From an uncultured Ruminococcus sp. (GTDB lineage Bacteria; Bacillota; Clostridia; Oscillospirales; CAG-272), in contig CAZULC010000001.1 in NCBI GenBank assembly GCA_964621165.1, forward strand, positions 204,281 through 268,280: 64,000 bases of DNA, given 5' to 3'. Under the pieces are notes generated by a model. It was not told where the DNA came from. It saw nothing but the letters and a program-made list of their open reading frames with translations, and ran no database searches. Position numbers and translations under genes: made by a program. Positions 28,252 to 29,103 of this stretch are shown piece after piece (position 1 is the first letter of the stretch; the number at the start of each line of letters is the position of its first letter).

Positions 28252-28485
28252 CGAAGTGGAGCAGTACGAGGAGTTTGGAAGGAGAGACGAGGGGACTTCT
28301 ATTAAGTTAGGAGATACGCAAGGTTGAGTGAAGGGGAACGCGCTTCTTGAAAGAAGCTGTGCAAGAACTTTTAACAGAGGCTGCAATGGGGTGCAGCTGA
28401 GTAGGGGAGCGGGTGCGGCTGCGGTTCTGTTGCTGAAGCGCCGTGTTAGCCTGTCGGTGCTACCGACCCCGCGGGGGCTTCCCCA
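28252..28485 (+). repeat. Family A repeat, copy A8 (truncated, fused to a family C terminal hairpin module)
   Basis: The end module lies at 28331-28375. The first interior hairpin then jumps to GCTGAAGCGCCGTG..CCTGTCGGTGCTACCGACCCCGCGGGGGCTTCCCC. Confidence 0.8.
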
Positions 28486-28500
28486 ATTGGAGGAATTTAT

Positions 28501-28752
28501 ATGTTGATACATGCGGGAGCGGGAAAATTGATTCGCGGGGGGGATGTTGTTGGGATGTTCGATATGGATGGACATTTCGGGAGTGAGGTCAACCGTGAGT
28601 TTTTGAAGTCGGCGGAGAGGCGGGGAGAGGTTGAGTCTGCGGGCGTTGACTTGCCCCGGGCGTTTATTGTCACGTCGTCGTCCGCCGGGCGGATGGTTAT
28701 ACTGTCCCACCTGTCCCCAGGCACACTGGCGAAGCGCGGTTCCGGGGTTTAG
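28501..28752 (+). CDS. DUF370 (RemB/YaaB-like) small protein
   Basis: Size (83 aa) and position just upstream of gyrB match the Firmicute yaaB/remB slot. The pattern I..G.G..I....VV...D... LS is DUF370-like. Confidence 0.65.
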   Translation: MLIHAGAGKLIRGGDVVGMFDMDGHFGSEVNREFLKSAERRGEVESAGVDLPRAFIVTSSSAGRMVILSHLSPGTLAKRGSGV

Positions 28753-28869
28753 TTGGCTTGGCGGGGTGAGGTTTGTCTGAAAGTTTTGGCGGATATTAGC
28801 GAACGGTTATTGGCACACGATAGGATTTTTAGACAAATATCCCTATATGGGCTGGGAATATGGTGTGAG

Positions 28870-29103
28870 TGGCTTGCTCGCAGTGATATAACTGCTGTAG
28901 AGAAAACGTGATCACTGCTCCATCAAGCAATCGGAATCCGGCGTGGGCGGGCAGGGGCCGGACTCTTCCCTGCTAAGCTGCAGAATTGTACGAAGTGACC
29001 GCTCCCCTACTCAACTGAACGTGATAAAGAATGAGGAATAAAGTTCTTGCACAGCTTCTTTCGAGAAGCGCGTTCCCCTCGCATCCTCCGTTCCTCTCGC
29101 CCC
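28870..29103 (-). repeat. Family A repeat, copy A9 (short form, reverse orientation, abutting the gyrB 5-prime region)
   Basis: The reverse end module lies at 29041-29080. The reverse complement is nearly colinear with the copy at 52796-53022. Confidence 0.85.

What the first reader, a model, noticed from the sequence alone, without database searches (positions are those of the whole stretch)
28252..29103. Single genes bracketed by inverted family A copies (DUF370 gene; also xpt)
The 252-nt DUF370 gene (28501-28752) lies between a forward copy (28252-28485) and a reverse copy (28870-29103). xpt (60852-61424) lies between a forward copy (60421-60765) and a reverse copy (61425-61850). These arrangements are composite-transposon-like. 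In a read-through transcript they could enclose the whole cistron in a long-range stem formed by the inverted end modules. Both genes are in their expected syntenic context, so a structural or regulatory consequence seems more likely than recent mobilisation.
Basis: partly seen in the sequence, partly recalled or inferred. Interest (0 to 1): 0.45.

Follow-up and report, generated by a model that had tools for sequence, protein, structure and literature searches.

The report
Genes flanked by inverted intergenic repeats
Two housekeeping genes really do sit between oppositely oriented copies of a very abundant intergenic repeat, but this looks like an inherited side-effect of how densely the repeat fills this gut bacterium's genome, not a transposon or a purpose-built RNA clamp.

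Summary
A 33-nt core (ACGCGCTTCTTGAAAGAAGCTGTGCAAGAACTT) occurs 19 times in the window. Forward and reverse copies flank the 83-aa RemA-like/DUF370 gene and the xpt-like gene.

Each flanking copy is a separate, complete element of a mosaic family. The family fills about 20 intergenic regions, roughly 10% of the window.

Both brackets recur in a sister species. More distant relatives keep dnaN-remB-gyrB and xpt-bmp-ABC without the flanking copies, so the repeats did not move these genes.

RNA folding predicts long-range stems, which any inverted repeat would give. Three results argue against a selected stem:
- Bracket partners are not the best-matched pairs (ranks 10/14 and 7/14).
- Chance gives at least two brackets with P = 0.05-0.09.
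- xpt has its own conserved promoter downstream of the forward copy, and that copy carries a terminator-like hairpin.

Best reading: an incidental, ancestral arrangement of a previously undescribed MITE/BIME/BOX-like family whose copies evolve in concert. An RNase III-type effect on a dnaN-remB-gyrB read-through RNA stays possible but is unsupported.

The parts
26986..28251 (+). dnaN (DNA polymerase III beta subunit), the gene upstream of the first bracket
   Evidence: Pfam DNA_pol3_beta domains 1-3
28252..28485 (+). Forward family A copy. Module order: upstream hairpin module, G-rich leader, CORE, 3a, 4a, 9. It starts directly after the dnaN stop codon.
   Evidence: Module map; repeat families D3, D4, D7, D20. 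This site is empty in L002, L003, L084 and L085.
28338..28370 (+). 33-nt core, an exact match to the family consensus
28501..28752 (+). remB-like RemA/DUF370 gene (83 aa)
   Evidence: Pfam PF04025 at 24.6 bits; homologues at the same locus in relatives
28823..28869 (+). Unrelated small repeat ('module 10', GGATTTTTAGACAAATATCC...). It also occurs downstream of remB and xpt in relatives.
28876..29103 (-). Reverse family A copy, short form (reverse complement of CORE-4c-7b-8a). It is 96% identical over 203 nt to the forward copy at 52805-53007.
   Evidence: (pair I1). A reverse copy lies at the orthologous position in L001.
29041..29073 (-). Core of the reverse copy (1 mismatch)
29155..31401 (+). 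gyrB, the gene downstream of the first bracket
   Evidence: Pfam
60420..60770 (+). Forward family A copy (CORE-3b-4d-5-7a-7b-9). It begins at the stop codon of the AMP-binding gene.
   Evidence: orthologous forward copy at L106 9472-9742
60492..60530 (+). Terminator-like hairpin (12-bp stem) plus T run inside the forward copy (module 4d)
60784..60812 (+). Probable xpt promoter: TTGCTT, 17-nt spacer, TATAAT. It lies downstream of the forward copy and is conserved in L106 and L108.
   Evidence: Read from the sequence and the alignment. It fell below the scan tool's threshold for the first hexamer.
60852..61424 (+). xpt-like phosphoribosyltransferase gene
61479..61850 (-). Reverse family A copy, long form (reverse complement of CORE..6-7a-7b-8a)
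   Evidence: orthologous reverse copies in L106, L107 and L108
61769..61801 (-). Core of the reverse copy (exact)
61927..63222 (+). Bmp/PnrA-like substrate-binding protein gene, downstream of the second bracket

Best explanation
**What it is.** Family A is a dense, ancient, non-coding mosaic repeat family of the MITE/BIME/BOX kind. It belongs to an uncultured gut Clostridia lineage.

**Anatomy.**
- Elements are built from optional modules placed behind a conserved left end.
- The left end is a G-rich GGGGAACG-like leader followed by a 33-nt core. The core contains a 6-bp hairpin (GCTTCT-TGAA-AGAAGC).
- Copies sit in intergenic regions, usually starting at or just after the stop codon of the upstream gene. 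Lone copies run 11:2 in the forward orientation.

**How the brackets arose (inferred).**
- The two brackets are two independent, complete elements that happen to lie in adjacent intergenic regions in opposite orientation.
- For remB, an element between remB and gyrB is old. A core in the same reverse orientation lies just upstream of gyrB even in relatives whose RemB is only 53% identical.
- A forward copy was inserted later between dnaN and remB.
- Both arrangements were inherited from the common ancestor with a sister species. Since then the copies have been homogenised within each genome by recombination or gene conversion.

**Consequence (inferred).**
- If dnaN-remB-gyrB is read through as one RNA, the two cores can form a duplex of at least 40 bp.
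- That duplex would be a plausible RNase III substrate.
- This would be a by-product, not a selected device.
For: **The family.**
- 19 cores and about 20 repeat-bearing intergenic segments lie in 64 kb.
- The elements have modular, variable composition.
- Three compact forward-reverse palindromes and one mini-palindrome show that inverted juxtaposition is common in this family.

**The flanking copies.**
- Each has its own right-end modules facing the gene.
- The reverse copy before gyrB matches a distant forward copy best (96% over 203 nt), not its bracket partner.
- Duplex-energy ranks of the bracket partners are 10/14 and 7/14.
- Permutation gives P = 0.05-0.09.

**Relatives.**
- The sister species (L001, L106, L107, L108, L083) keeps both brackets at orthologous sites.
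- L002, L003, L084 and L085 lack the dnaN|remB copy. L110 lacks the family altogether.
- A reverse core variant lies directly upstream of gyrB in L084 and L085, and a mini-palindrome in L002 and L003.

**Concerted evolution.** Within-genome cores share CGCG..CTGTGC. Orthologous copies in the sister species carry GACG..CTTGGC, CTTAGC or CTGAGC, and their internal modules differ.

**Transcription signals at xpt.** A conserved promoter lies downstream of the forward copy, and a terminator-like hairpin lies inside it.
Against: - All five reverse cores in the window lie within 1.4 kb downstream of a forward core. The reverse orientation is conserved at both sites in the sister species, and before gyrB in distant relatives. 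That could reflect selection rather than inheritance.
- The minimum-free-energy folds do contain the long-range stems (z = -7.5 for the remB region).
- Mobility is not demonstrated. No target-site duplication, no autonomous partner and no transposase was found among the 40 window ORFs scanned.
- The permutation P values are borderline and rest on n = 2.
- No transcript data were available.
Confidence: 0.68

Rival explanations
1. **Selected long-range RNA stem.** On read-through transcripts the forward and reverse copies pair and enclose the cistron. This creates a double-stranded processing or insulation site that sets the fate of the remB or xpt cistron and its neighbours. The model is the RNase III stalks that flank 16S and 23S rRNA.
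For: - A 40-nt arm pair at 98% plus a 22-nt pair (remB), and a 33-nt core plus a 106-nt pair at 90% (xpt).
- Long-range stems appear in the minimum-free-energy and centroid folds.
- No promoter or terminator is predicted between dnaN, the forward copy and remB, so read-through is plausible there.
- The arrangement is conserved in the sister species.
- Transcribed Correia elements are proposed RNase III targets (PMC2229807, PMC3049150).
Against: - Partner copies are not preferentially complementary.
- The orthologous reverse copy before gyrB in L001 has different internal modules.
- The xpt promoter and a terminator-like hairpin separate the forward copy from the xpt mRNA.
- Bracket frequency is near chance.
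- Translation of the enclosed ORF would oppose an 0.7-1.3 kb loop closure (inference).
Confidence: 0.1
2. **The reverse copies work on the downstream gene.** They are leader or promoter-proximal elements of gyrB and bmp. The upstream forward copy plays no part.
For: - A reverse-oriented core or palindromic remnant lies 30-105 nt upstream of gyrB in every relative examined: window, L001, L002, L003, L084 and L085. The rest of the intergenic region cannot be aligned.
- Reverse halves of the compact palindromes also end 30-50 nt before the start codons at 5683 and 33211.
- The C-rich reverse leader contains CCTCC-type anti-Shine-Dalgarno strings (read from the sequence).
Against: - No promoter consensus is found in the reverse copies.
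- L110 has xpt-bmp without any copy.
- Persistence could be due to gene conversion from the many other copies.
Confidence: 0.13
3. **Mobilisation unit.** The two inverted copies act as the ends of a composite transposon-like or MITE-flanked unit that can move the enclosed gene.
For: Inverted copies with their core ends facing outwards. MITE-flanked mobilisation units are known elsewhere (own knowledge).
Against: - Gene order is ancestral in relatives that lack the copies.
- No direct repeat is seen at the outer ends (read from the sequence).
- No second copy of remB or xpt exists in the window.
- The two copies of each pair differ in module content.
Confidence: 0.02
4. **DNA-level inversion substrate.** The inverted copies allow homologous recombination that flips the enclosed gene.
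For: Arms of 40 nt (98%) and 106 nt (90%) separated by 0.7-0.9 kb.
Against: remB and xpt have the same orientation in every relative examined. The arms are short for RecA-dependent exchange (own knowledge).
Confidence: 0.03

Closest known systems
BOX elements of Streptococcus pneumoniae (boxA-boxB(n)-boxC)
   Same: Intergenic, non-coding and modular, with a variable number and choice of modules. Sizes reach several hundred bp. They are often co-transcribed with flanking genes and their effects depend on orientation (PMC3049150).
   Different: No sequence relationship was found. Family A has a G-rich leader plus a 33-nt core at one end only in most copies. Its density is far higher here (about 10% of the window). 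No TIR/TSD pair was demonstrated for lone copies.
REP/BIME mosaic elements of enterobacteria
   Same: Mosaic combinations of a palindromic unit with other motifs, placed at the 3' ends of genes or between cistrons. They are known to act as attenuators or mRNA stabilisers (PMC3049150 background).
   Different: The family A core hairpin is short (6 bp) and the elements are much longer. No RAYT-type gene is seen in the window. The host is a Clostridia lineage.
Correia/NEMIS elements of Neisseria
   Same: The compact palindromic forms (5244-5653, 16177-16603, 32803-33163) resemble TIR-bounded elements that fold into long hairpins in mRNA. Correia transcripts are proposed RNase III targets (PMC2229807).
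   Different: Correia elements are 100-155 bp with 26-bp TIRs and a TA duplication. In family A the arms of one palindrome differ in module content, and no duplication was seen.
MITE-flanked mobilisation units and composite transposons
   Same: Two inverted copies of one small element flank a gene.
   Different: The genes here are housekeeping genes in ancestral synteny. The two copies are unequal, and there is no flanking duplication (own knowledge of the class; tests).
RNase III processing stalks that flank 16S/23S rRNA in rRNA operons
   Same: Inverted sequences on both sides of a whole gene could pair in the primary transcript (own knowledge; folds).
   Different: rRNA stalks are pair-specific and conserved by covariation. 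Here any forward copy pairs with any reverse copy, and the partners are not the best match.

Membership tests
Composite transposon / MITE-flanked mobilisation unit | Two copies of the same mobile element bound the passenger segment | tested here: met
   Forward and reverse family A copies flank remB and xpt, although the two copies differ in module content.
Composite transposon / MITE-flanked mobilisation unit | The passenger plus ends occupy a non-ancestral or variable location | tested here: not met
   dnaN-remB-gyrB and xpt-bmp-ABC synteny holds in relatives without the copies (L002, L003, L084, L085, L110).
Composite transposon / MITE-flanked mobilisation unit | Target-site duplication at the outer ends of the whole unit | tested here: not met
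   The outer flanks are ...CAACTGA|CGAAGTGG and ...CGCCCC|TTTTACCTGC for remB, and ...GTCATT|TAGTGAAG and ...CGAACC|ATAGATTT for xpt. They share no direct repeat.
MITE | Small, non-coding, multi-copy | tested here: met
   Elements of 180-430 nt; 19 cores in 64 kb; ORFs inside the elements have no Pfam hit.
MITE | Terminal inverted repeats | tested here: inconclusive
   Present in the three compact palindromic forms. Lone copies have unlike ends (core versus modules 8a, 8b or 9), with only a faint CGCGCT...CTGT resemblance.
MITE | Target-site duplication and filled versus empty sites | tested here: inconclusive
   The dnaN|remB site is empty in L002, L003, L084 and L085 and filled in the window and L001. 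No duplication is recognisable at this level of divergence.
MITE | A cognate autonomous element or transposase | tested here: not met
   No transposase domain in the 40 window ORFs scanned. No similarity in plasmid or phage collections or in viral contigs. The rest of the genome could not be examined.
REP/BIME | A palindromic unit combined in mosaics, extragenic, near gene 3' ends | tested here: met
   Core hairpin plus variable modules; forward copies start at or just after stop codons. In 17 of 20 metagenome cores, a long same-strand frame ends within about 50 nt upstream.
REP/BIME | An associated RAYT (Y1 HUH transposase) | not testable with these tools
   Only 64 kb of this genome is available, and none is present in it.
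Described structured RNA family (Rfam 15) | A match to a covariance model | tested here: not met
   Only tRNA-Ser matched at gathering score. Nothing lies on the repeats even at E <= 5.
Gene-enclosing RNase III processing stalk | The flanks are complementary and predicted to pair | tested here: met
Gene-enclosing RNase III processing stalk | Partner-specific complementarity that is maintained | tested here: not met
   Partners rank 10/14 and 7/14 in duplex energy. Orthologous copies differ in modules.
Gene-enclosing RNase III processing stalk | Both flanks on one transcript, with cleavage in the stem | not testable with these tools
   No transcript data. The sequence signals argue against it for xpt and allow it for remB.

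The most novel reading that the evidence does not exclude
In this Clostridia lineage, forward and reverse copies of the repeat have been co-opted as movable 'processing brackets'. On operon transcripts they pair across a whole cistron (remB within dnaN-remB-gyrB; xpt). Double-strand-specific cleavage then uncouples that cistron's stability and translation from its neighbours. This would explain why the reverse orientation is kept at both sites in the sister species, and before gyrB in distant relatives.
Probability: 0.07. Interest if true: 0.65.

Novelty: new member of a known kind. Interest (0 to 1): 0.3.

Why it matters
If the brackets are incidental, the value is descriptive. An uncultured gut Clostridia lineage carries an undescribed mosaic repeat that occupies about a tenth of this region, including every intergenic region of the dnaA-dnaN-remB-gyrB-pfkB-gyrA cluster. 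The repeat breaks metagenome assemblies and creates spurious ORFs and altered C-termini, so annotation pipelines should mask it.

The conserved core is the part worth follow-up. It has a G-rich leader, a hairpin and a third co-varying purine segment, and it sits just after stop codons across several related gut lineages. It could be a protein-binding or structural signal at gene 3' ends.

If the bracket stems were functional, they would be an mRNA counterpart of the rRNA processing stalks, built from mobile repeats.

Tried and rejected
- **Exact 26-nt core** in GTDB species representatives and in JGI metagenomes: 0 hits.
- **Degenerate core:** 20 metagenome contigs, which share only the leader and core; 0 viral contigs.
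- **Rfam**, at gathering score and at E <= 5: nothing on the repeats, and no purine riboswitch before xpt.
- **Plasmid and phage BLAST** with a full element: nothing meaningful.
- **Look-ups of the window's own proteins** (P0001, P0010): not on record, so the rest of the 350-kb source contig could not be fetched.
- **Covariation count on the core hairpin:** the stem is almost invariant and the extension pairs are mostly unpaired, so the result is inconclusive.
- **Lone elements as structured RNAs:** z-scores from -2.5 to +0.7 on the + strand, so they are not exceptional. Only the palindromic forms are strongly structured, at z from -9 to -15. One shuffle script timed out.
- **Promoter and terminator scans:** no promoter in either reverse copy, and no terminator between dnaN and remB.
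- **Strand bias tied to replication rather than transcription:** GC skew is positive across the whole window, and the forward copy at 18102 and the partial forward fragment at 14770-14842 both lie in the minus-gene block in forward orientation. Two cases are too few to decide.
- **Literature searches** for this family found nothing specific.

Full report
**Observation**

The window (49.5% G+C) holds the chromosomal dnaA region of a Clostridia bacterium. The genes, by Pfam, are:
- on the minus strand: rnpA, yidD, yidC, jag and mnmE;
- then on the plus strand: dnaA 23887-25575, dnaN 26986-28251, an 83-aa RemA-like/DUF370 ORF 28501-28752, gyrB 29155-31401, a pfkB-type kinase, and gyrA.

A 33-nt core, ACGCGCTTCTTGAAAGAAGCTGTGCAAGAACTT, occurs 19 times with at most 7 mismatches: 14 forward and 5 reverse. 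Eight copies are exact. Self-comparison finds 19 intergenic segments that carry family A sequence plus four short ones from another repeat family, about 6 kb or 10% of the window in all.

- **remB:** cores at 28338-28370 (+) and 29041-29073 (-). The arms are 40 nt at 98% and 22 nt at 91% complementarity.
- **xpt:** cores at 60431-60463 (+) and 61769-61801 (-), plus a 106-nt arm pair at 90%.

**Anatomy of the family**

I mapped module consensus sequences on the window. The family is mosaic.
- The left end is a purine-rich, G-run leader of variable length, followed by the core.
- Then come alternative modules: 3a/3b, 4a-d, optional 5 and 6, 7a, 7b, and a right end of type 8a, 8b or 9.

The four copies of the finding are composed as follows.
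- Forward copy before remB: leader-CORE-3a-4a-9.
- Reverse copy after remB: reverse complement of CORE-4c-7b-8a. This is the same short form as the forward copy at 52800-53009, to which it is 96% identical over 203 nt.
- Forward copy before xpt: CORE-3b-4d-5-7a-7b-9.
- Reverse copy after xpt: reverse complement of CORE..6-7a-7b-8a.

Each bracket therefore consists of two separate, complete and unlike elements, with their right ends facing the gene.

Three compact palindromic forms place a forward and a reverse half back to back with no gene between them: 5244-5653, 16177-16603 and 32803-33163. A mini-palindrome lies at 36807-36921. All five reverse cores lie downstream of a forward core within 1.4 kb. 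Forward copies begin at or just after the stop codon of the upstream gene. In one case the ORF 47712-49064 runs into the element and stops at the TGA in the core loop.

**Relatives**

The exact core is absent from the GTDB species representatives and from JGI metagenomes. The species is thus poorly represented in those collections. Its proteins exist in NCBI on a 350-kb contig that could not be fetched.

*Sister species* (assembly GCA_037193895.1 and related assemblies; about 80% nucleotide identity in gyrB, 91% amino-acid identity in xpt). It carries family A at orthologous intergenic regions.
- The right end of a forward copy lies before remB, and a reverse copy before gyrB (L001; also L083).
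- A forward copy lies before xpt and a reverse copy after it (L106); L107 and L108 also carry the reverse copy after xpt.
- Both brackets therefore predate that split.

*More distant relatives.*
- They have dnaN and remB only 12-30 nt apart with no copy between them: L002, L003, L084 and L085.
- L110 (xpt 88% identical) has xpt-bmp-ABC with no family A module at all.
- The genes are therefore in their ancestral places, and the dnaN|remB forward copy is a later insertion.

*The remB-gyrB spacer.*
- L084 and L085 have a degenerate forward core just after remB and a reverse core variant directly before gyrB.
- L003 has a variant forward core after remB and a leader-like mini-palindrome before gyrB. 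L002 also has the mini-palindrome.
- An element in the remB-gyrB spacer is therefore old, and the window's reverse copy is its descendant or replacement.

**Concerted evolution**

Almost all cores in the window read CGCG-hairpin-CTGTGC. Copies at orthologous sites in the sister species read GACG...CTTGGC, CTTAGC or CTGAGC. The orthologous reverse copy before gyrB has different internal modules.

Copies thus resemble their paralogues more than their orthologues. This indicates homogenisation or replacement within genomes (inference).

**Does the bracket mean anything?**

*Thermodynamics.* RNA folds of 28252-29110 and 60405-61850 contain the long-range stems. The first gives -371 kcal/mol with z = -7.5 against shuffles. 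Any inverted repeat would give this result.

*Partner specificity.*
- Among 14 forward elements, the true partner of the remB reverse copy ranks 10th in duplex energy.
- The true partner of the xpt reverse copy ranks 7th.
- The halves of the compact palindromes are also not each other's best match.

*Frequency.* I permuted element states among intergenic regions, and separately permuted orientations among occupied sites. At least two single-gene brackets arise with P = 0.05-0.09, and the mean expectation is 0.45-0.7.

*Transcription signals, from sequence only.*
- The forward copy before xpt contains a 12-bp hairpin followed by a T run at 60492-60530.
- A TTGCTT-17-TATAAT promoter at 60784-60812 lies between that copy and xpt and is conserved in L106 and L108.
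- The forward copy is therefore probably the 3' end of the upstream transcript, not part of the xpt mRNA.
- Between dnaN, its forward copy and remB, no promoter or terminator is predicted. Only 15 nt separate the copy from the remB start.
- Read-through is therefore plausible at remB, and the stem could form there.

*Lone copies.* They are not unusually structured RNAs, with z from -2.5 to +0.7 on the + strand. Only the palindromic forms are, with z from -9 to -15.

**What the family is**

- No Rfam family matches.
- There is no similarity in plasmids, phages or viral contigs.
- No transposase is present among the 40 window ORFs scanned.

A degenerate core pattern retrieves 20 gut-type metagenome contigs of 43-61% G+C. 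They share only the (GGGGAACG)n leader and the core. In 17 of the 20 cores that could be scored, a long same-strand reading frame ends within about 50 nt upstream.

The core is thus a conserved unit placed after genes across related lineages, while the other modules are lineage-specific.

Formal pair counting on the hairpin is inconclusive because the stem hardly varies. Three variants do change three segments together:

| Source | S1 | S2 | S3 |
|---|---|---|---|
| Canonical | CTTCTTG | AAGAAG | CAAGAAC |
| L003 | CTTTCTTG | AAGAAAG | CAAAGAAC |
| L086/L087 | CTTTTG | AAAAAG | CAAAAC |
| L084 | CTTTTCTG | AAGAAAAG | CAAAAGAC |

S3 tracks S2 as a mirror or direct repeat. This fits either three half-sites for one protein or a hairpin with a third purine strand. 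I could not distinguish the two.

**Comparison with known systems**

In kind, the family resembles four described types (PMC3049150, PMC2229807):
- BOX elements, which are modular;
- BIMEs, which are mosaics at gene ends;
- Correia/NEMIS elements, which form palindromes and whose transcripts are proposed RNase III targets;
- ERIC elements, which affect mRNA stability in an orientation-dependent way.

Membership of the MITE class is only partly met. The elements are small, non-coding and multi-copy, and one filled-versus-empty site is seen. No target-site duplication, no clear terminal inverted repeats in lone copies and no autonomous partner were found. The composite-transposon reading fails its defining tests.

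**Verdict**

The proposed structural or regulatory role is possible for remB, unlikely for xpt, and supported by no comparative or statistical signal.

The most likely explanation is an inherited coincidence within a very dense repeat family that evolves in concert. Novelty: a new member of a known kind. Interest: 0.3.

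Noticed in passing
window cores (e.g. 28338-28370); L003 9298-9339; L084 1055-1095; L086 about 1022; L087 about 2667: Three segments of the core change together in lineage variants: S1 CTTCTTG, S2 AAGAAG, S3 CAAGAAC. S3 follows S2 as a mirror or direct repeat. This suggests either three half-sites for one protein or a hairpin plus a third purine strand (purine-motif triplex).
   Followed up: partly
L086-L105 (metagenome contigs) and the window's forward copies: The core is preceded by tandem GGGGAACG-like units and sits just after the stop codon of a co-oriented gene in several related gut lineages. 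The downstream modules are lineage-specific. No Rfam family covers it.
   Followed up: partly
window 47712-49064 and 49052-49084: The AI-2E transporter ORF reads through the G-rich leader and ends at the TGA in the core's loop, so the repeat supplies the last ~14 codons and the stop codon. Several spurious ORFs (12168-12581, 16178-16483, 18125-18403, 25823-26176, 28240-28710 minus strand, 46641-46907 minus strand) lie inside repeats.
   Followed up: partly
window 36807-36921: A mini-palindrome consists only of leader plus half a core joined to its reverse complement. It lies next to tRNA-Ser (36668-36759). The orthologous site in L001 (9226-9420) holds a long forward copy, which suggests deletion between inverted cores.
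   Followed up: partly
window 28435-28484, 18561-18610, 60730-60752, 42883-42905, 56168-56186 (minus strand): Module 9 (CCTGTCGGTGCTACCGACCCC...) ends the forward copy in both brackets and also occurs as solitary fragments, one of them directly after the stop of the SLH-domain gene. Its role is unknown.
   Followed up: no
window 28823-28869; L082 408-719 (3 copies); L106 10610-10631; L107; L108; L001 5149-5178: A second small repeat family (GGATTTTT[A/G]GACAAAT[A/G]TCCC...GGCTGG) recurs downstream of remB and xpt in relatives.
   Followed up: no
window 2863-3384: Six copies of a ~40-nt AT-rich repeat (GGATTATCTTTT...TTATTGCAGAATTGT) are spaced 59-124 nt apart, between the dus and flavin-reductase genes. 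GC skew changes sign near here. They could be iterons or an origin-like feature.
   Followed up: no
window 1-64000: GC skew is positive on the + strand over almost the whole window, including the minus-strand gene blocks (12.5-23.3 kb and 37-44.9 kb), even though dnaA lies at 23.9 kb. The forward copy at 18102 and the partial forward fragment at 14770-14842 in the 12.5-23.3 kb minus-gene block keep the forward orientation, which hints at a strand bias rather than a gene bias.
   Followed up: partly
window 60771-60851: No purine riboswitch or any other Rfam match lies upstream of the xpt-like gene, which has only a ~30-nt leader after a conserved promoter.
   Followed up: partly
window 29155-31401 (GyrB residues about 255-345): GyrB carries a ~90-residue acidic, low-complexity insertion (…EDDAVDEDL…AEDEAEDEN…) between the ATPase and transducer domains. 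DnaA (562 aa) and DnaN (421 aa) are also longer than usual.
   Followed up: no
window 39425-39856 and 40095-40410: 12/24-nt tandem repeats lie inside the 1030-aa minus-strand ORF, and three 105-nt repeats lie just upstream of it. A further repeat family pairs 20903-21050 with 58246-58650.
   Followed up: no
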